In this document: positions 3,310 to 63,989 of the stretch, piece by piece
Numbering within the stretch: position 1 is the first letter of the stretch
How the letters are laid out: every line of letters begins with the position of its first letter
Notes under the pieces: model-generated
What the model was told of the DNA's origin: nothing
Databases searched by the model: none
The model's input: the letters and a program-made list of their open reading frames with translations, nothing else
Assembly: GCF_001677475.2 (NCBI RefSeq)
Contig: NZ_CP015229.1
Origin: Escherichia coli
Lineage (GTDB): Bacteria > Pseudomonadota > Gammaproteobacteria > Enterobacterales > Enterobacteriaceae
Length of the DNA stretch: 64,000 nt
Strand: one strand, 5' to 3'
Translations under genes and position numbers: made by a program

Positions 3310-5607
3310 ATGACGAATCGTATCTCTCGCCTCAAAACTGCACTGTTTGCCAATACCCGTGAAATCTCGCTGGAGCGGGCGCTGCTTTATACCGCCAGCC
3401 ATAAGCAAACCGAAGGCGAACCGGTGATTATTCGTCGGGCAAAAGCCACGGCGTATATCCTTGAACATGTTGAAATTTCGATTCGTGATGAAGAACTGAT
3501 TGCTGGTAACCGCACCGTAAAACCTCGCGCCGGGATTATGTCGCCGGAAATGGATCCTTACTGGTTGCTGAAAGAGCTGGAGCAATTCCCGACGCGACCG
3601 CAGGATCGCTTTGCTATCAGTGAAGAAGATAAACGTATCTACCGCGAAGAGTTGTTCCCGTACTGGGAAAAACGTTCGATGAAAGATTTCATCAACGGGC
3701 AGATGACGGATGAAGTAAAAGCCGCAACCAGCACGCAGATTTTCAGCATCAACCAGACGGATAAAGGCCAGGGGCACATTATTATTGATTACCCACGCCT
3801 GTTGAATCACGGGCTGGGGGAGCTGGTGGCACAGATGCAGCAACATTGTCAGCAACAGCCGGAGAATCACTTTTATCAGGCCGCGCTGTTACTGCTGGAA
3901 GCTTCACAAAAACACATTTTGCGTTACGCCGAACTGGCAGAAACGATGGCGGCAAACTGCACCGATGCCCAGCGTCGCGACGAATTGCTGACTATTGCGG
4001 AGATCTCCCGCCATAACGCGCAACATAAGCCGCAGACGTTCTGGCAGGCGTGCCAGTTATTCTGGTACATGAACATCATTCTGCAATACGAATCCAACGC
4101 CAGTTCGCTGTCGTTAGGGCGCTTCGACCAGTATATGTTGCCGTTCTATCAGACATCATTAACCCAGGGCGAAGACCCGGCGTTCCTGAAAGAACTGCTC
4201 GAATCTTTATGGGTGAAGTGCAACGACATCGTGCTGTTACGCTCCACCAGCAGCGCGCGCTATTTCGCAGGTTTCCCGACCGGCTATACCGCGCTGCTCG
4301 GCGGTTTAACGGAAAACGGACGTAGTGCGGTGAACGTGCTTTCGTTCCTCTGCCTCGACGCCTATCAAAGCGTGCAATTACCGCAACCGAACCTGGGCGT
4401 GCGCACTAACGCCTTGATCGACACGCCGTTCCTGATGAAAACCGCAGAAACCATTCGCCTCGGCACCGGTATTCCGCAAATCTTTAACGATGAAGTGGTG
4501 GTGCCAGCGTTCCTCAACCGTGGCGTTTCGCTGGAAGATGCGCGCGACTATTCAGTAGTGGGCTGTGTGGAATTATCTATTCCCGGCAGAACCTACGGCT
4601 TGCATGACATCGCGATGTTTAACCTGCTGAAAGTGATGGAAATCTGCCTGCATGAAAATGAAGGCAATGCTGCGCTGACTTATGAAGGTTTACTGGAGCA
4701 GATCCGCGCCAAGATCAGCCACTACATCACCCTGATGGTTGAGGGCAGCAATATTTGCGATATCGGTCACCGTGACTGGGCACCTGTACCGCTGCTCTCA
4801 TCGTTTATCAGCGATTGTCTGGAAAAAGGCCGCGATATTACCGATGGCGGTGCGCGTTATAACTTCTCCGGCGTACAGGGGATCGGTATCGCCAACCTGA
4901 GCGATTCTCTCCATGCGTTGAAAGGTATGGTTTTTGAGCAACAGCGTTTAAGTTTTGACGAATTGCTGTCGGTATTAAAAGCCAACTTTGCAACGCCAGA
5001 AGGCGAAAAAGTCCGCGCTCGCTTAATTAACCGCTTTGAGAAATACGGTAACGATATCGACGAGGTGGATAACATTAGCGCCGAACTGTTGCGCCACTAC
5101 TGCAAAGAAGTGGAAAAATACCAGAACCCGCGCGGCGGCTACTTCACGCCGGGATCGTATACCGTTTCTGCTCACGTCCCGTTGGGATCGGTGGTTGGCG
5201 CGACGCCAGACGGTCGTTTTGCCGGGGAACAACTGGCAGACGGCGGCTTGTCACCTATGCTGGGTCAGGACGCACAAGGGCCAACGGCGGTACTGAAGTC
5301 AGTCAGTAAGCTCGATAATACGCTGCTGTCTAACGGTACGTTGCTGAACGTGAAATTCACTCCGGCGACCCTGGAAGGTGAAGCGGGATTACGCAAACTG
5401 GCCGACTTCTTACGGGCGTTTACCCAGCTTAAGTTGCAGCATATTCAGTTTAACGTGGTGAACGCCGACACGTTGCGGGAAGCGCAACAGCGCCCACAAG
5501 ATTATGCCGGGCTGGTGGTGCGCGTTGCCGGATACAGCGCCTTCTTTGTCGAATTGTCGAAGGAGATCCAGGATGACATCATCCGCCGGACAGCGCATCA
5601 GCTGTAA
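3310..5607 (+). CDS. pflD: Glycyl radical enzyme (annotated formate acetyltransferase 2)
   Basis: 765-aa ORF; C-terminal glycyl radical motif RVAGYSAFF; catalytic-loop-like GCVE. Confidence 0.93.
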   Translation: MTNRISRLKTALFANTREISLERALLYTASHKQTEGEPVIIRRAKATAYILEHVEISIRDEELIAGNRTVKPRAGIMSPEMDPYWLLKELEQFPTRPQDRFAISEEDKRIYREELFPYWEKRSMKDFINGQMTDEVKAATSTQIFSINQTDKGQGHIIIDYPRLLNHGLGELVAQMQQHCQQQPENHFYQAALLLLEASQKHILRYAELAETMAANCTDAQRRDELLTIAEISRHNAQHKPQTFWQACQLFWYMNIILQYESNASSLSLGRFDQYMLPFYQTSLTQGEDPAFLKELLESLWVKCNDIVLLRSTSSARYFAGFPTGYTALLGGLTENGRSAVNVLSFLCLDAYQSVQLPQPNLGVRTNALIDTPFLMKTAETIRLGTGIPQIFNDEVVVPAFLNRGVSLEDARDYSVVGCVELSIPGRTYGLHDIAMFNLLKVMEICLHENEGNAALTYEGLLEQIRAKISHYITLMVEGSNICDIGHRDWAPVPLLSSFISDCLEKGRDITDGGARYNFSGVQGIGIANLSDSLHALKGMVFEQQRLSFDELLSVLKANFATPEGEKVRARLINRFEKYGNDIDEVDNISAELLRHYCKEVEKYQNPRGGYFTPGSYTVSAHVPLGSVVGATPDGRFAGEQLADGGLSPMLGQDAQGPTAVLKSVSKLDNTLLSNGTLLNVKFTPATLEGEAGLRKLADFLRAFTQLKLQHIQFNVVNADTLREAQQRPQDYAGLVVRVAGYSAFFVELSKEIQDDIIRRTAHQL

Positions 5608-58402: not shown

Positions 58403-59467
58403 ATGACCGAACTTAAAAACGATCGTTATCTGCGGGCGCTGCTGCGCCAGCCCGTTGATGTCACTCCAGTATGGATGATGCGCCAGGCGGGTCGCTATCT
58501 ACCAGAATATAAAGCCACGCGTGCTCAGGCGGGCGATTTTATGTCGCTGTGCAAAAACGCCGAACTGGCGTGCGAAGTGACTTTGCAGCCGCTGCGTCGC
58601 TATCCGTTGGACGCGGCGATCCTCTTTTCCGATATCCTCACCGTGCCGGACGCGATGGGGTTAGGGCTCTATTTTGAAGCCGGAGAAGGTCCTCGTTTTA
58701 CCTCGCCAGTCACCTGCAAAGCTGACGTTGATAAACTGCCAATTCCGGATCCGGAAGATGAACTGGGTTACGTGATGAACGCGGTGCGTACCATTCGCCG
58801 CGAACTGAAAGGCGAAGTGCCGCTGATTGGTTTTTCCGGCAGTCCGTGGACGCTGGCGACCTACATGGTGGAAGGCGGCAGCAGCAAAGCGTTCACCGTG
58901 ATCAAAAAAATGATGTATGCCGATCCGCAGGCGCTGCATGCTCTGCTCGATAAACTGGCGAAAAGCGTCACTTTGTATCTGAATGCGCAGATTAAAGCCG
59001 GTGCTCAGGCTGTGATGATTTTCGACACCTGGGGCGGCGTGCTTACCGGGCGCGATTATCAACAGTTCTCGCTTTATTACATGCATAAAATTGTTGATGG
59101 TTTACTGCGTGAAAACGACGGTCGCCGCGTACCGGTCACGCTGTTTACCAAAGGCGGCGGACAGTGGCTGGAAGCCATGGCAGAAACCGGTTGCGATGCG
59201 CTGGGCCTCGACTGGACAACGGATATCGCCGATGCGCGCCGCCGCGTGGGCAATAAAGTCGCGTTGCAGGGTAATATGGATCCGTCGATGCTGTACGCGC
59301 CGCCAGCCCGCATTGAAGAAGAAGTAGCGACTATACTTGCAGGTTTCGGTCACGGCGAAGGTCATGTCTTTAACCTTGGTCACGGCATTCATCAGGATGT
59401 GCCGCCAGAACATGCTGGCGTGTTTGTGGAGGCAGTGCATCGCTTATCTGAACAGTATCACCGCTAA
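58403..59467 (+). CDS. hemE: Uroporphyrinogen decarboxylase
   Basis: 354-aa [39 protein letters not shown].. Confidence 0.96.
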
Positions 59468-59476
59468 GGAGTGATT

Positions 59477-60148
59477 ATGGATCTCGCGTCATTACGCGCT
59501 CAACAAATCGAACTGGCTTCTTCTGTGATCCGCGAGGATCGACTCGATAAAGATCCGCCGGATCTGATCGCCGGAGCCGATGTCGGGTTTGAGCAGGGCG
59601 GAGAAGTGACGCGAGCGGCGATGGTGCTGCTGAAATACCCCTCGCTTGAGCTGGTGGAGTATAAAGTGGCCCGCATCGCCACCACCATGCCTTACATTCC
59701 AGGTTTTCTTTCCTTCCGCGAATATCCTGCGCTGCTGGCAGCGTGGGAGATGCTGTCGCAAAAGCCGGATTTAGTGTTTGTCGATGGTCACGGGATCTCG
59801 CATCCTCGCCGTCTTGGCGTCGCCAGCCACTTTGGTTTGCTGGTGGATGTGCCGACCATTGGCGTGGCGAAAAAACGGCTCTGCGGTAAATTCGAACCGC
59901 TCTCCAGCGAACCGGGCGCGCTGGCCCCACTGATGGATAAAGGCGAGCAGCTGGCCTGGGTCTGGCGCAGCAAAGCGCGCTGTAACCCGTTGTTTATCGC
60001 TACCGGTCATCGGGTCAGCGTGGACAGCGCGCTGGCGTGGGTACAACGCTGCATGAAAGGCTATCGTCTGCCGGAGCCAACGCGCTGGGCGGACGCGGTG
60101 GCCTCGGAACGTCCGGCGTTCGTGCGCTATACAGCAAATCAGCCCTAA
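59477..60148 (+). CDS. nfi: Endonuclease V
   Basis: ORF-track 59471..60148 (GTG) trimmed to ATG 59477 ([17 protein letters not shown]..), 223 aa. Confidence 0.92.
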
Positions 60149-60190
60149 TTCAGGTAAACTGCGGATAATTTCCGTATTTGAGAACTCAAC

Positions 60191-60781
60191 ATGTTACAAA
60201 ACCCAATTCATCTGCGTCTGGAGCGCCTGGAAAGCTGGCAGCATGTCACTTTCATGGCTTGCTTATGCGAACGCATGTACCCCAATTACGCCATGTTTTG
60301 CCAGCAAACCGGTTTTGGCGATGGGCAAATTTACCGCCGTATTCTCGATCTCATCTGGGAAACGCTGACCGTCAAAGACGCAAAAGTAAATTTCGACAGC
60401 CAACTGGAGAAATTTGAAGAAGCGATTCCTTCAGCCGACGATTTCGATCTGTACGGCGTTTATCCGGCAATCGATGCATGCGTGGCGTTAAGTGAACTGG
60501 TCCATTCGCGTTTGAGTGGTGAAACGCTCGAACACGCGGTAGAAGTGAGTAAGACCTCCATCACAACCGTTGCGATGCTGGAAATGACTCAGGCTGGTCG
60601 CGAAATGAGCGATGAAGAGCTCAAAGAAAACCCAGCTGTAGAGCAAGAATGGGATATTCAGTGGGAAATATTCCGACTTTTAGCTGAGTGCGAAGAACGC
60701 GACATCGAGCTGATAAAAGGCCTTAGGGCAGACCTGCGTGAGGCGGGTGAGAGCAATATTGGTATAATTTTTCAGCAATAA
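60191..60781 (+). CDS. yjaG: DUF416-family protein
   Basis: 196-aa ORF, MLQNPIHLRLERLESWQHVTFMACLCERMYPNY.. Confidence 0.88.
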   Translation: MLQNPIHLRLERLESWQHVTFMACLCERMYPNYAMFCQQTGFGDGQIYRRILDLIWETLTVKDAKVNFDSQLEKFEEAIPSADDFDLYGVYPAIDACVALSELVHSRLSGETLEHAVEVSKTSITTVAMLEMTQAGREMSDEELKENPAVEQEWDIQWEIFRLLAECEERDIELIKGLRADLREAGESNIGIIFQQ

Positions 60782-60967
60782 GACCAGAAAACGTGATTTA
60801 ACGCCTGATTTGTCGTACCTGGAGTCTTCCCTTTCGCCCCCCGTCTGGTCTACATTTGGGGGGCGAAAAAAAGTGGCTATCGGTGCGTGTATGCAGGAGA
60901 GTGCTATTCTGGCATTTCCGTCGCACTCGATGCTTAGCAAGCGATAAACACATTGTAAGGATAACTT

Positions 60968-61240
60968 ATGAACAAGACTCAACTGATTGATGTAATTGCA
61001 GAGAAAGCAGAACTGTCCAAAACCCAGGCTAAAGCTGCTCTGGAGTCCACTCTGGCTGCAATTACTGAGTCTCTGAAAGAAGGCGATGCTGTACAACTGG
61101 TTGGTTTCGGTACCTTCAAAGTGAACCACCGCGCTGAGCGTACTGGCCGCAACCCGCAGACCGGTAAAGAAATCAAAATTGCCGCAGCTAACGTACCGGC
61201 ATTTGTTTCTGGCAAGGCACTGAAAGACGCAGTTAAGTAA
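60968..61240 (+). CDS. hupA: DNA-binding protein HU-alpha
   Basis: 90-aa [93 protein letters not shown]. Confidence 0.98.
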
Positions 61241-61252
61241 GATTGCGTGGCA

Positions 61253-61948
61253 GTGAACAGTTTTAACGAAGGGGTGGTTTCACCCCTTTTGTCTTTCTGG
61301 CGTCGATCATTGATGCTGGCTGGTGCTCTGTTTCTCACTGCCTGTAGCCACAACTCTTCACTTCCTCCCTTTACCGCCAGTGGATTTGCTGAAGACCAGG
61401 GCGCGGTACGTATCTGGCGAAAAGACAGCGGCGATAATGTGCATCTGCTTGCCGTGTTTAGCCCGTGGCGCAGTGGCGATACCACGACGCGAGAGTATCG
61501 CTGGCAGGGCGATAACCTCACGCTCATCAATATCAATGTTTACAGCAAACCGCCGGTGAACATTCGTGCGCGTTTTGACGATCGCGGCGATCTGAGCTTT
61601 ATGCAACGTGAATCCGATGGGGAAAAGCAGCAGCTTTCTAACGACCAAATCGATTTATACCGTTATCGTGCTGATCAGATCCGCCAGATTAGCGATGCCT
61701 TACGTCAGGGGAGAGTCGTGCTGCGCCAGGGGCGCTGGCATGCGATGGAACAGACCGTGACCACCTGCGAAGGGCAAACCATTAAACCTGATTTAGATTC
61801 GCAGGCGATAGCGCATATCGAGCGCCGCCAGAGCCGCTCTTCTGTTGATGTCAGCGTGGCATGGCTGGAAGCGCCCGAAGGTTCGCAATTACTGTTAGTG
61901 GCAAACTCTGATTTCTGTCGCTGGCAACCCAACGAGAAAACGTTCTGA
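61253..61948 (+). CDS. yjaH: Putative lipoprotein (DUF1481)
   Basis: ORF-track 61247..61948 from GTG; start tentatively placed at the second GTG (61253, 231 aa); lipobox-like LTAC; exact start uncertain. Confidence 0.8.
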   Translation: MNSFNEGVVSPLLSFWRRSLMLAGALFLTACSHNSSLPPFTASGFAEDQGAVRIWRKDSGDNVHLLAVFSPWRSGDTTTREYRWQGDNLTLININVYSKPPVNIRARFDDRGDLSFMQRESDGEKQQLSNDQIDLYRYRADQIRQISDALRQGRVVLRQGRWHAMEQTVTTCEGQTIKPDLDSQAIAHIERRQSRSSVDVSVAWLEAPEGSQLLLVANSDFCRWQPNEKTF

Positions 61949-61949
61949 T

Positions 61950-62375
61950 TTACCAGTGGCCCATACCCATATGACCGCCACCACCGCAGCCGCCGTAGCC
62001 CATGCCCATTCCGGCTCCGCGCGGAATACCCGCTTCAGCCATCGCAATATCCCGTTTCACCCGTAACTCATCTAACGACTGACGCAAATTCTCCATCTCT
62101 TTGGCGACCGCGTTAATTTTGCTGCTATCCGGTGGGTTCGCGGCTAACAGGGCATTGTATTCATAACGCTTCGTCACCAGTTGCTGTTGCAGTGCGCTGC
62201 TTTGAGCGTAAAAGTCATTATGGATTTTCTGCCACGCTGTCTGTTGTTCGCTGGTCAAAGGCGCGGCATTTTGCTGCCACATACCGTGTCCGCCGTGAGC
62301 AAATGCAGATGTCGATCCCATCGCCATTGCTGAAAGCGCCATCATTACCAGGGCAATTTTCGTGTTCCGTTTCAT
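61950..62375 (-). CDS. zraP: Periplasmic zinc-responsive envelope-stress protein ZraP
   Basis: ORF-track 61950..62516 trimmed to Met at 62375 (MKRNTKIALVMMALSAMAMGSTSAFA..), 141 aa; signal peptide; Gly/His/Met-rich C-terminus. Confidence 0.92.
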   Translation of the reverse strand: MKRNTKIALVMMALSAMAMGSTSAFAHGGHGMWQQNAAPLTSEQQTAWQKIHNDFYAQSSALQQQLVTKRYEYNALLAANPPDSSKINAVAKEMENLRQSLDELRVKRDIAMAEAGIPRGAGMGMGYGGCGGGGHMGMGHW

Positions 62376-62409
62376 GGTTAATCCTCCAGTGGTTGTCTTA
62401 CTTCGGGTA

Positions 62410-62427
62410 TTGCATCTTCCGTGCCAA
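62410..62427 (-). promoter_or_regulatory. Sigma-54 (-24/-12) promoter of zraP
   Basis: Minus strand reads TTGGCACGGAAGATGCAA (GG..N10..GC), about 35 bp upstream of the zraP ATG. Confidence 0.8.
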
Positions 62428-62468
62428 CGATGAAACGCTGATATGACGGGTAATCTGGCATGATAAAC

Positions 62469-62515
62469 GAGTAAAAATGACTCGCCTGCTGCGGGTAGCG
62501 AGTCATTTTTACTCA
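62469..62515. promoter_or_regulatory. ZraR enhancer-binding palindrome
   Basis: Perfect 17-bp inverted repeat GAGTAAAAATGACTCGC .. GCGAGTCATTTTTACTC between the divergent sigma-54 promoters. Confidence 0.8.
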
Positions 62516-62565
62516 TTGAAACTTAAGCCTTTGTGTTACAGCGCAGGGTAAGCGCTGATAAAAGA

Positions 62566-62581
62566 TGGCATGATTTCTGCT
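62566..62581 (+). promoter_or_regulatory. Sigma-54 (-24/-12) promoter of zraSR
   Basis: TGGCATGATTTCTGCT about 30 bp upstream of the zraS start. Confidence 0.75.
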
Positions 62582-62612
62582 GTCAGAAAGGGATGAGCAG
62601 GCAAAGAAGAAG

Positions 62613-63989
62613 ATGCGTTTTATGCAACGTTCTAAAGACTCCTTAGCTAAATGGTTAAGCGCGATCCTCCCCGTGGTCATTGTTGGGCTGGTGGGGCTGT
62701 TTGCGGTGACTGTGATTCGCGATTATGGGCGCGAGACTGCCGCCGCCAGACAAACGCTGCTGGAAAAAGGCAGTGTACTTATCCGTGCTCTCGAATCCGG
62801 CTCGCGCGTCGGCATGGGGATGCGCATGCATCATGCGCAGCAGCAGGCATTACTGGAAGAAATGGCCGGGCAGCCTGGTGTACGTTGGTTTGCGGTCACG
62901 GATGAACAAGGAACAATCGTGATGCATAGCAACTCCGGCATGGTGGGAAAACAGCTTTATTCCCCGCAGGAAATGCAGCAGTTACATCCGGGAGATGAAG
63001 AAGCGTGGCGGCGGATCGATAGCGCAGACGGCGAGCCTGTTCTGGAAATTTATCGCCAGTTTCAACCGATGTTTGCTGCTGGAATGCACCGGATGCGCCA
63101 TATGCAGCAGTATGCCGCGACACCACAAGCAATTTTCATCGCTTTCGACGCCAGTAATATTGTGAGTGCCGAAGATCGTGAGCAGAGAAACACCCTGATT
63201 ATCCTTTTCGCCCTGGCGACGGTCTTGCTGGCAAGCGTATTGTCATTCTTCTGGTATCGCCGCTATCTGCGCTCGCGCCAGCTTCTACAAGATGAAATGA
63301 AGCGCAAAGAGAAGCTGGTGGCGCTGGGGCATCTTGCGGCAGGCGTTGCCCACGAAATCCGTAACCCACTTTCCTCGATTAAAGGACTGGCGAAATACTT
63401 TGCCGAGCGCGCGCCTGCAGGGGGAGAAGCGCATCAACTGGCGCAGGTGATGGCGAAAGAGGCCGACCGTTTAAACCGCGTGGTAAGCGAGTTGCTGGAA
63501 CTGGTTAAGCCAACGCATCTGGCTTTGCAGGCGGTGGATCTCAACACGCTGATTAACCACTCATTACAGCTGGTAAGCCAGGATGCAAACAGCCGGGAGA
63601 TCCAGTTACGCTTTACCGCCAACGACACATTACCGGAAATTCAGGCCGATCCGGACAGGCTGACTCAGGTCCTGTTGAATCTCTATCTCAATGCTATTCA
63701 GGCGATTGGTCAGCATGGCGTGATTAGCGTGACGGCCAGCGAAAGCGGCGCGGGCGTGAAAATTAGCGTTACCGACAGCGGTAAGGGAATTGCGGCAGAT
63801 CAGCTTGAAGCCATCTTCACCCCGTACTTCACCACCAAAGCCGAAGGCACCGGACTGGGGCTGGCGGTCGTGCATAATATTGTTGAACAACACGGTGGTA
63901 CAATTCAGGTCGCAAGCCAGGAGGGAAAAGGCGCAACGTTCACCCTCTGGCTTCCGGTCAATATTACGCGTAAGGACCCACAAGGATGA
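62613..63989 (+). CDS. zraS: Sensor histidine kinase ZraS
   Basis: 458-aa ORF; two TM segments flanking a periplasmic domain; H-box HLAAGVAHEIRNPL; G-boxes in the ATPase domain. Confidence 0.93.
   Translation: MRFMQRSKDSLAKWLSAILPVVIVGLVGLFAVTVIRDYGRETAAARQTLLEKGSVLIRALESGSRVGMGMRMHHAQQQALLEEMAGQPGVRWFAVTDEQGTIVMHSNSGMVGKQLYSPQEMQQLHPGDEEAWRRIDSADGEPVLEIYRQFQPMFAAGMHRMRHMQQYAATPQAIFIAFDASNIVSAEDREQRNTLIILFALATVLLASVLSFFWYRRYLRSRQLLQDEMKRKEKLVALGHLAAGVAHEIRNPLSSIKGLAKYFAERAPAGGEAHQLAQVMAKEADRLNRVVSELLELVKPTHLALQAVDLNTLINHSLQLVSQDANSREIQLRFTANDTLPEIQADPDRLTQVLLNLYLNAIQAIGQHGVISVTASESGAGVKISVTDSGKGIAADQLEAIFTPYFTTKAEGTGLGLAVVHNIVEQHGGTIQVASQEGKGATFTLWLPVNITRKDPQG

What the first reader, a model, noticed from the sequence alone, without database searches (positions are those of the whole stretch)
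60830..60875. GC-rich hairpin followed by an A-run between yjaG and hupA
tcgcccccc..ggggggcga forms a 9-bp G/C stem followed by AAAAAAA on the plus strand (T-run before the stem on the minus strand). It is oriented as a terminator for neither strand in the canonical sense, yet sits where yjaG should terminate and just upstream of the hupA promoter. It may be a protein-binding or RNA-stability element.
Basis: seen in the sequence. Interest (0 to 1): 0.2.

Follow-up and report, generated by a model that had tools for sequence, protein, structure and literature searches.

The report
Palindrome inside the hupA core promoter
The GC-rich "hairpin plus A-run" between yjaG and hupA is not a terminator: it is the core promoter and transcription start of the E. 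coli HU-alpha gene, and its inverted repeat was described in the 1990s, so the finding is real but ordinary.

Summary
The palindrome exists and is longer than reported. It is an 11-bp perfect inverted repeat, TTTCGCCCCCC (60832-60842) / GGGGGGCGAAA (60858-60868), with a 15-nt loop. The A7 run is 60866-60872.

It does not lie "just upstream of the hupA promoter". It is the promoter. The mapped hupA start site is 105 nt before the ATG, which is G60863, inside the right arm. The "loop" therefore holds the -10 hexamer TACATT. The G-run is the discriminator and +1. The A-run is +4..+10 of the hupA mRNA. The C-run is the promoter spacer.

Published Term-seq tables list no RNA 3' end there, and neither strand has a U-tract after the stem.

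Across about 60 distinct Enterobacterales sequences the "loop" is the most conserved part. The stem varies mostly by uncompensated changes, and its stability runs from -14 kcal/mol (E. coli, the maximum) to -2 kcal/mol. A few compensatory pairs occur in Pantoea and a Rahnella-type group, but overall covariation is marginal.

An inverted repeat overlapping the hupA promoter was proposed by Kohno et al. (1994) to form an HU-promoted cruciform that autorepresses hupA.

Verdict: already known, low interest.

The parts
60191..60781 (+). yjaG (DUF416) coding sequence, stop TAA at 60779-60781
   Evidence: ORF list. RefSeq annotation of MG1655 b3999, where MG1655 coordinate = window + 4139313.
60827..60832 (+). 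Inferred -35 hexamer of the hupA promoter: TTCCCT in E. coli (3/6 match to TTGACA), 18-bp spacer. Its last base is the first base of the left arm.
   Evidence: The position follows from the mapped start site. In most other genera the same columns read TTCACA, a 5/6 match. CTTC at 60826-60829 is invariant. Inference only; not mapped here.
60832..60842 (.). Left arm of the inverted repeat, TTTCGCCCCCC, promoter positions -31 to -21 (end of the -35 hexamer plus the upstream half of the spacer)
   Evidence: It is the least conserved part of the palindrome: mean majority frequency 0.854.
60843..60857 (.). 'Loop', GTCTGGTCTACATTT, promoter positions -20 to -6 (downstream half of the spacer, the -10 hexamer, and the first discriminator base)
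   Evidence: 14 of 15 columns are invariant in 59 distinct Enterobacteriaceae sequences, majority frequency 0.999. It is also conserved in Erwinia, Pantoea, Dickeya and the Rahnella-type loci.
60851..60856 (+). -10 hexamer TACATT (positions -12 to -7)
   Evidence: Its distance to the mapped start site G60863 is exact. It is invariant in every relative that keeps the promoter, including the AT-rich genome L085.
60858..60868 (.). Right arm, GGGGGGCGAAA, positions -5 to +6: G-rich discriminator, the transcription start, and the first transcribed bases
   Evidence: Majority frequency 0.951.
60863..60863 (+). hupA transcription start site (+1, G)
   Evidence: Mendoza-Vargas et al. 2009 (PMC2760140) list hupA p1 at -105, both as the known start site (Kohno 1990; Claret 1996) and in their own mapping. 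The Salmonella 5'UTR primers JVO-08607 and JVO-10450 start at GCGAAAAAAGTGGCTATCG. The 110-nt E. coli hupA-5' RNA of Stein et al. 2020, which includes the AUG, is consistent with a 5' UTR of about this length.
60866..60872 (+). A7 run, +4 to +10 of the hupA mRNA. Predicted single-stranded at the 5' end of the transcript.
   Evidence: Nearly invariant in Enterobacteriaceae; in Erwiniaceae the stretch from C60864 on reads CTGAAAA(A/T)(A/T)GTGG.
60863..60967 (+). hupA 5' UTR (105 nt)
   Evidence: Start site as above. 84 of 105 columns are invariant across Enterobacteriaceae. The roughly 30 nt next to the AUG are the RaiZ/ProQ target (PMC5391140).
60968..61240 (+). hupA (HU-alpha) coding sequence
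61268..61289 (+). hupA intrinsic terminator, the real terminator of this neighbourhood
   Evidence: Terminator scan. Strong Term-seq 3' end at MG1655 4200605, which is window 61292.

Best explanation
The palindrome is the core of the sigma-70 promoter of hupA (HU-alpha) and works at the DNA level in transcription initiation. It is not an RNA hairpin.

**Anatomy, numbered from the mapped start G60863.**
- -35 hexamer TTCCCT at 60827-60832 (weak in E. coli; TTCACA in most relatives).
- 18-bp spacer. Its upstream half is the C-run arm.
- -10 hexamer TACATT at 60851-60856, inside the 'loop'.
- G-rich discriminator TGGGGG and the +1 G. These are the G-run arm.
- The first transcribed bases GCGAAAAAAA. 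These are the 'A-run after the stem'.

**Why it looks like a hairpin.** Two separately conserved homopolymer blocks flank the -10 element: C6 in the spacer and G6 at the discriminator and start. The Escherichia lineage, and a few Enterobacter/Lelliottia-type loci with the same TTTCG, extended the complementarity outward to 11 bp.

**Shown.** The sequence, the start-site position from the literature, the conservation pattern, and the absence of mapped 3' ends.

**Inferred.**
- The -35 assignment.
- That the G-rich discriminator makes the promoter sensitive to supercoiling or growth rate. This rests on general knowledge of GC-rich discriminators and was not tested for hupA.
- That this repeat is the one Kohno et al. 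(1994) proposed to extrude as an HU-promoted cruciform that blocks the promoter.
For: - **Start site.** It is -105 from the ATG and matches the 5' end of the cloned Salmonella 5'UTR. This puts +1 inside the right arm and TACATT at exactly -12..-7.
- **Conservation pattern.** It is the reverse of what a structural hairpin shows. Majority frequencies are loop 0.999, right arm 0.951 and left arm 0.854, against 0.708 at yjaG third codon positions.
- **Pairing within Enterobacteriaceae.** There are 0 compensatory pairs, and 80.1% of cells are paired versus 80.4% in shuffles.
- **Stem stability is not conserved.** DNA hairpin energy runs from -14.0 kcal/mol in E. coli down to about -2 kcal/mol in other genera that carry the same promoter.
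- **No terminator signals.** There is no terminator-like site here and no Term-seq 3' end in 4200100-4200199.
- **Not a repeat or known RNA family.** It is a single-copy locus present in 5388-5420 of 5426 E. coli genomes. There is no Rfam match.
- **Prior description.** Secondary literature states that the hupA promoter overlaps an inverted repeat with cruciform potential (PMC3969353, citing Kohno 1994). I1 is the only substantial inverted repeat in the region.
Against: - The generic promoter scan does not call this promoter, because the E. coli -35 matches only 3/6. The -35 assignment is therefore inference.
- The primary papers (Kohno 1990 and 1994; Claret 1996) could not be read. The start site and the inverted-repeat statement come from papers that cite them.
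- A promoter reading alone does not explain why the C6 spacer block is so well conserved.
- A few compensatory substitutions outside Enterobacteriaceae hint that the pairing may matter.
Confidence: 0.9

Rival explanations
1. The pairing itself is functional at the DNA level. Under negative supercoiling constrained or increased by HU, the repeat extrudes as a cruciform that holds the -10 and start region in hairpin loops and stems. RNA polymerase cannot bind, and this gives HU autorepression of hupA (the model of Kohno et al. 1994). This rival is compatible with the promoter identity. It adds a structural switch to it.
For: - The model is published, as summarised in PMC3969353.
- Both DNA strands fold well: -14.0 and -13.3 kcal/mol, z about -4 to -5.
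- In the wider alignment, 4 of 11 pairs show changes on both sides. Pair 38-62 goes from C-G to A-T in the Rahnella-type loci, while Dickeya and two Rahnella-type loci carry the A.G intermediate. In Pantoea, pair 35-65 goes from C-G to A-T and pair 34-66 becomes C-G.
- In Escherichia, two changes in and next to the -35 region (60832 and 60834) lengthen the stem from 8 to 11 bp.
Against: - The covariation is marginal. 28 of 500 shuffles reach the observed number of double-changed pairs, and 20 of 500 reach the covariation score. The tool's own caveat says related sequences can give such values without any structure. Cells paired are 80.1% versus 79.5% in shuffles.
- Pair 40-60 is broken without compensation in 16 of 56 distinct sequences, including Klebsiella pneumoniae, Raoultella and Kluyvera.
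- Hairpin stability falls to about -2 kcal/mol in genera with an otherwise identical promoter.
- From general knowledge, a 15-nt unpaired centre and GC-rich arms disfavour extrusion.
- The primary paper was not available, so the strength of its evidence is unknown.
Confidence: 0.3
2. An RNA stem-loop at the 3' end of yjaG transcripts. It would act as a non-canonical terminator, or as a barrier to 3' exonucleases after Rho-dependent termination.
For: - A read-through yjaG transcript would contain both arms, and the RNA fold is strong: -24.4 kcal/mol, z -3.4.
- No other terminator-like site lies between the yjaG stop and hupA.
- G.T (G.U) combinations occur at some pairs in relatives.
Against: - There is no U-tract, and the loop is 15 nt.
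- No 3' end appears in MG1655 4200100-4200199 in the Term-seq tables, although nearby ends at 4200253, 4200389 and 4200605 are listed.
- The loop is more conserved than the stem.
- The stem is weak in many genera.
- The element coincides exactly with the -10, discriminator and +1 of a mapped promoter.
Confidence: 0.05
3. A palindromic operator for a dimeric transcription factor (for example a repressor, or the CRP or Fis inputs reported for hupA) that overlaps the core promoter.
For: - The arms are perfectly symmetric and overlap the promoter.
- The spacer is unusually conserved.
- hupA is reported to respond to CRP, Fis and RstA (reference titles and text).
Against: - The half-sites are 26 bp apart centre to centre, about 2.5 helical turns, so they lie on opposite faces. 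C6/G6 runs resemble no CRP or Fis consensus that I know of (general knowledge).
- The outer half of the left arm is not conserved.
- No factor is known to bind here.
Confidence: 0.03

Closest known systems
hupA promoter (hupAp, start site -105) of E. coli, with the inverted repeat of Kohno et al. [quoted passage not shown]
   Same: Same locus. The mapped start site falls inside the right arm. The palindrome found here is the only substantial inverted repeat overlapping that promoter.
   Different: Nothing differs in identity. My comparative data add two points. The pairing is maximal in Escherichia and a few Enterobacter/Lelliottia-type loci with the same arms, and degenerate in many other genera. 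The 'loop' is the best-conserved part.
Sigma-70 promoters with a GC-rich discriminator (rrn P1, fis, tyrT type; stringent and supercoiling-sensitive promoters)
   Same: A G/C-only stretch lies between the -10 hexamer and +1 (TGGGGG then G+1). The -35 is weak. The gene encodes an abundant, growth-phase-regulated nucleoid protein.
   Different: ppGpp/DksA or supercoiling sensitivity of hupAp was not shown here, and I found nothing on it in the papers searched. The spacer is 18 bp, against the 16 bp typical of rrn P1.
Rho-independent (intrinsic) terminators
   Same: A GC-rich stem downstream of a stop codon.
   Different: The loop is 15 nt. There is no U-tract on either strand; instead an A-tract follows the stem on the + strand and a T-tract precedes it on the - strand. 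No 3' end is mapped there.
REP/BIME and ERIC intergenic palindromes
   Same: An intergenic GC-rich palindrome in an enterobacterial genome.
   Different: It is single-copy, with a median of one place per E. coli genome. It matches no repeat family. A true ERIC-like element is inserted in the Dickeya hupA leader, not here.

Membership tests
Sigma-70 core promoter (hupAp) | Experimentally mapped transcription start site within the element | tested here: met
   Start site -105 from the ATG = G60863 (PMC2760140). The Salmonella 5'UTR primers start at the homologous G. This is literature evidence, not new data.
Sigma-70 core promoter (hupAp) | -10 hexamer resembling TATAAT at -12..-7 | tested here: met
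   TACATT at 60851-60856 (4/6 match, with A2 and T6 present). Invariant in all 62 aligned sequences.
Sigma-70 core promoter (hupAp) | -35 hexamer resembling TTGACA, 16-19 bp upstream of the -10 | tested here: inconclusive
   E. coli has TTCCCT (3/6) with an 18-bp spacer and fails the generic scan. Most other genera have TTCACA (5/6) in the same columns.
Intrinsic terminator | Short loop (3-8 nt) and a U-rich tract immediately 3' of a GC-rich stem | tested here: not met
   The loop is 15 nt. AAAAAAA follows the stem on the + strand and AAAGGGAAG follows it on the - strand. The site is not reported by the terminator scan.
Intrinsic terminator | RNA 3' ends mapped at the foot of the stem | tested here: not met
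   No entry in 4200100-4200199 in the Term-seq tables of Adams et al. 2021, while 4200253, 4200389 and 4200605 are listed.
Cruciform-type autoregulatory inverted repeat (Kohno 1994 model) | Perfect or near-perfect inverted repeat overlapping the functional promoter elements | tested here: met
   An 11-bp perfect repeat spans -31..+6.
Cruciform-type autoregulatory inverted repeat (Kohno 1994 model) | Pairing maintained in evolution (compensatory changes, conserved stability) | tested here: inconclusive
   0 compensatory pairs within Enterobacteriaceae. 4 pairs in the wider set, but shuffles reach the observed values 14-28 times in 500. Stability ranges from -14 to -2 kcal/mol.
Cruciform-type autoregulatory inverted repeat (Kohno 1994 model) | Extrusion in supercoiled DNA and HU-dependent repression that requires the repeat | not testable with these tools
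   This needs probing of supercoiled DNA and promoter mutants. The primary paper (PMID 7982891) is not held.
Structured RNA family (Rfam) | Match to a curated covariance model | tested here: not met
   No match overlaps 60780-60970 even at E-value up to 10.
Dispersed repeat (REP/BIME/ERIC) | Many copies per genome | tested here: not met
   One place per genome (median 1, maximum 2) in 5388-5420 E. coli genomes.

The most novel reading that the evidence does not exclude
The complementarity of the C-run and G-run is itself under selection. It would form a DNA-topology switch (an HU- or supercoiling-driven cruciform) built into the hupA core promoter. Three observations leave this open. Pair 38-62 changes from C-G to A-T in Rahnella-type genomes, through an A.G intermediate still seen in Dickeya. 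Pairs 35-65 and 34-66 change in Pantoea. The Escherichia lineage lengthened the stem to 11 bp with two substitutions in and next to the -35 hexamer, one of them inside it. The idea dates from 1994, so only the evolutionary support and an in-vivo demonstration would be new.
Probability: 0.2. Interest if true: 0.4.

Novelty: already known. Interest (0 to 1): 0.1.

Why it matters
HU is one of the most abundant nucleoid proteins, and its alpha/beta ratio changes with growth phase, so the way hupA transcription is set is of real interest. However, the promoter, its start site and the overlapping inverted repeat are already in the literature.

This re-examination does two things. It also adds a modest comparative result: across Enterobacterales the -10/spacer 'loop' is almost invariant, while the stem is often broken. 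That weakens the old cruciform autoregulation model without excluding it.

Tried and rejected
- **Rfam scan** of 59000-63000 at E-value up to 10: only chance-level hits elsewhere.
- **Generic promoter scan:** 0 sites, because the E. coli -35 is too weak. It could not confirm the promoter.
- **Conservation within E. coli:** uninformative. At least 99% identity in 5357 of 5388 genomes, like the flanks.
- **Start-site and 3'-end datasets:**
  - The Cappable-seq supplement has no entry for 4200174-4200178 or for hupA in the text held, and the files are probably truncated.
  - Thomason 2015 is not held.
  - Kohno 1994 is not held.
  - The Stein 2020 supplement is not held.
- **Literature searches that returned nothing useful:** yjaG with hupA, Term-seq terms, a CRP/Fis query swamped by clinical papers, and hupA with ppGpp and discriminator, which gave no direct evidence.
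- **Metagenome scan for CTGGTCTACATTTG:** 120 stretches, but only 7 lie next to a hupA gene. The rest are chance 14-mer matches.
- **Distant DUF416 neighbours:**
  - L087 (AT-rich) is too diverged to align.
  - L086 ends at the contig edge before any hupA gene was called.
  - L088 has no hupA next to the DUF416 gene.
  - L085 keeps TCTACATTT but has no C or G runs.
- **Rejected readings:** intrinsic or bidirectional terminator, REP-like element, palindromic operator, small ORFs on either strand (the ORFs at 60798-60953 and 60810-60947 are mechanical), and the second 8-nt repeat AGACCAGA/TCTGGTCT, whose left arm is not conserved.

Full report
**1. What is in the sequence.**

The window is Escherichia coli, in the hemE-nfi-yjaG-hupA-yjaH-zraP region. 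It is 100% identical to O121 and O157 strains and has one mismatch to K-12 over 301 bp. MG1655 coordinate = window + 4139313. yjaG ends with TAA at 60779-60781, and hupA starts at 60968.

Between them lies cctTTTCGCCCCCCgtctggtctacatttGGGGGGCGAAAaaaag. The inverted repeat is 11 bp and perfect, with arms 60832-60842 and 60858-60868 and a 15-nt centre. The A7 run is 60866-60872.

Predicted stability is high:
- As RNA: -24.4 and -25.6 kcal/mol (z -3.4 and -4.5).
- As DNA: -14.0 and -13.3 kcal/mol (z -4.8 and -4.1).

Perfect repeats of this size are rare by chance in the window. There are 8 distinct loci, against about 0.8 hits (start-and-loop combinations, overlaps counted) in first-order Markov random sequences built from the window.

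**2. What it is.**

Two independent literature sources place the hupA transcription start inside the right arm.

- Mendoza-Vargas et al. 2009 list hupA p1 at -105 from the start codon. They give this both as the previously known start site (Kohno 1990; Claret 1996) and as the result of their own mapping. 60968 - 105 = 60863.
- Smirnov et al. 2017 cloned the Salmonella hupA 5' UTR, described as the 5'-UTR plus the first 25 codons, with primers that begin GCGAAAAAAGTGGCTATCG. This is the homologous G.
- The 110-nt E. coli hupA-5' RNA of Stein et al. 2020, which includes the AUG, is consistent with a 5' UTR of about this length.

With +1 at G60863 the anatomy is as follows:

| Feature | Window coordinates | Promoter positions |
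|---|---|---|
| Inferred -35, TTCCCT | 60827-60832 | -36 to -31 (18-bp spacer) |
| Left arm, TTTCGCCCCCC | 60832-60842 | -31 to -21 |
| 'Loop', GTCTGGTCTACATTT | 60843-60857 | -20 to -6 |
| -10 hexamer, TACATT | 60851-60856 | -12 to -7 |
| Right arm, GGGGGGCGAAA (discriminator TGGGGG, +1 G, first transcribed bases) | 60858-60868 | -5 to +6 |
| A-run | 60866-60872 | +4 to +10 |

The hairpin therefore cannot form in the hupA mRNA. Its first 10 nt, GCGAAAAAAA, are predicted unpaired.

In most other genera the -35 columns read TTCACA, a 5/6 match. The weak E. coli -35 explains why the generic promoter scan reports nothing here.

**3.

*Terminator or RNA-stability element.* The Term-seq tables of Adams et al. 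2021 contain no 3' end anywhere in MG1655 4200100-4200199. They do list 4200253 (a weak end in the hupA leader), 4200389, and the strong hupA terminator end at 4200605. The only terminator-like site nearby is 61268-61289, downstream of hupA. No Rfam family matches. The element is single-copy in E. coli genomes, so it is not a REP-type repeat.

**4. Conservation.**

I collected 80 Enterobacteriaceae loci with yjaG-hupA synteny. I then added Dickeya, Erwinia, Pantoea and a Rahnella-type group, using exact YjaG and HupA look-ups.

The yjaG-hupA spacer keeps its length (188-190 nt) throughout Enterobacteriaceae. Majority-base frequencies in 59 distinct sequences are:

| Segment | Majority-base frequency |
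|---|---|
| yjaG third codon positions (baseline) | 0.708 |
| yjaG-proximal spacer | 0.864 |
| Core promoter | 0.928 |
| 5' UTR | 0.983 |
| Left arm | 0.854 |
| 'Loop' | 0.999 (14 of 15 columns invariant) |
| Right arm | 0.951 |

A hairpin selected for its stem normally shows the opposite pattern, with a variable loop and a covarying stem.

*Pairing within Enterobacteriaceae.* There are 0 pairs with changes on both sides. 80.1% of cells are paired, against 80.4% in shuffles. Many one-sided disruptions occur, such as GGAGGG, GGAAGG, GTGGGG, ACCCTT and CCCCCG. The outer TTTCG/CGAAA part pairs fully only in Escherichia and a few others.

*Stem stability.* DNA hairpin energy ranges from -14.0 kcal/mol in E. 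coli, the maximum, to about -2 kcal/mol in genera whose promoter is otherwise identical.

*The wider alignment (62 sequences).* It contains some changes that look genuinely compensatory.
- Pair 38-62 is A-T in the Rahnella-type loci. Dickeya and two Rahnella-type loci carry the A.G intermediate.
- In Pantoea, pair 35-65 is A-T and pair 34-66 is C-G.

Overall 4 of 11 pairs show double changes, and the covariation score is 0.095 against 0.079 +/- 0.008. Shuffles reach these values 28 and 20 times in 500. Pair 40-60 is broken in 16 of 56 distinct sequences. By the tool's own caveats this is marginal.

*A distant relative.* An AT-rich genome (L085) keeps TCTACATTT but has neither C nor G runs.

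**5. How it most likely works.**

The best-supported reading is that this is the hupA core promoter. The two arms are conserved mainly as primary sequence: the C-tract in the spacer, and the G-tract at the discriminator and start.

From established knowledge of GC-rich discriminators, I infer that the G-tract shortens open-complex lifetime and makes the promoter responsive to supercoiling and growth conditions. This was not tested, and I found no direct data.

The literature already holds a structural model. According to PMC3969353, which cites Kohno et al. 1994, the hupA promoter overlaps an inverted repeat that HU helps extrude as a cruciform, sterically blocking the promoter and giving autorepression. 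The 11-bp repeat is the only substantial inverted repeat in this region. I therefore identify it with theirs, by inference, since the primary paper is not held.

My comparative data neither confirm nor exclude that model. I give it about 0.3.

**6. Comparison with known systems, and verdict.**

The element is a member of the class 'sigma-70 promoter': the start site and the -10 are met, and the -35 is weak in E. coli. It is not an intrinsic terminator, because the loop, the U-tract and the 3'-end criteria are all failed. It is not an Rfam RNA and not a dispersed repeat.

The finding is real but already explained in the literature.

Interest is low (0.1). The most novel reading still open is selection on the pairing, as a topology-sensing switch. 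I give it a probability of about 0.2, and it would be of moderate interest if true.

Noticed in passing
window 60863-60967: The whole 105-nt hupA 5' UTR is almost invariant across Enterobacteriaceae. 84 of 105 columns are invariant and the majority frequency is 0.983, against 0.708 at yjaG third codon positions. Only about 30 nt next to the AUG are explained by the known RaiZ/ProQ pairing. The constraint on the upstream 70 nt or so is unexplained. The predicted fold is not unusually stable (z -0.83). A weak Term-seq 3' end lies at window 60940 (MG1655 4200253).
   Followed up: partly
L082 about 1917-2040 (Dickeya fangzhongdai): The Dickeya hupA leader carries an insertion of about 120 nt after ...GGAGAGTGCTA. 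It contains GAATCCCCGTGAGCTTACTTGAGTAAGTGAATGGGGTGAGCG. From memory of the ERIC1R and ERIC2 primer sequences, this looks like an ERIC/IRU element. It sits inside an otherwise invariant 5' UTR.
   Followed up: no
window 61247-61292: The hupA intrinsic terminator (61268-61289, Term-seq 3' end at 61292) lies inside the annotated 5' end of the yjaH coding sequence. The RefSeq start is at 61253. Either yjaH is read through this terminator or its start codon is mis-assigned.
   Followed up: no
window 60789-60812: A conserved block AACGTGATTTAACGCCTGATTTG lies at about -74 to -51 of hupAp, inside the otherwise variable yjaG-proximal spacer. It contains a CRP-like half-site CGTGA and is a candidate for the CRP or Fis inputs reported by Claret and Rouviere-Yaniv 1996. 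I did not test it.
   Followed up: no
window 60827-60834 compared with L035, L036, L209 and others: E. coli and a few Enterobacter/Lelliottia-type loci have TTCCCTTT where most genera have TTCACATC. These substitutions weaken the -35 from 5/6 to 3/6. Two of them (60832 and 60834) also lengthen the palindrome from 8 to 11 bp.
   Followed up: partly
window 60781-60788 and 60844-60851: A second 8-nt inverted repeat, AGACCAGA / TCTGGTCT, links the base after the yjaG stop codon to the promoter spacer. Its left arm is not conserved in other genera, so it is probably chance.
   Followed up: yes
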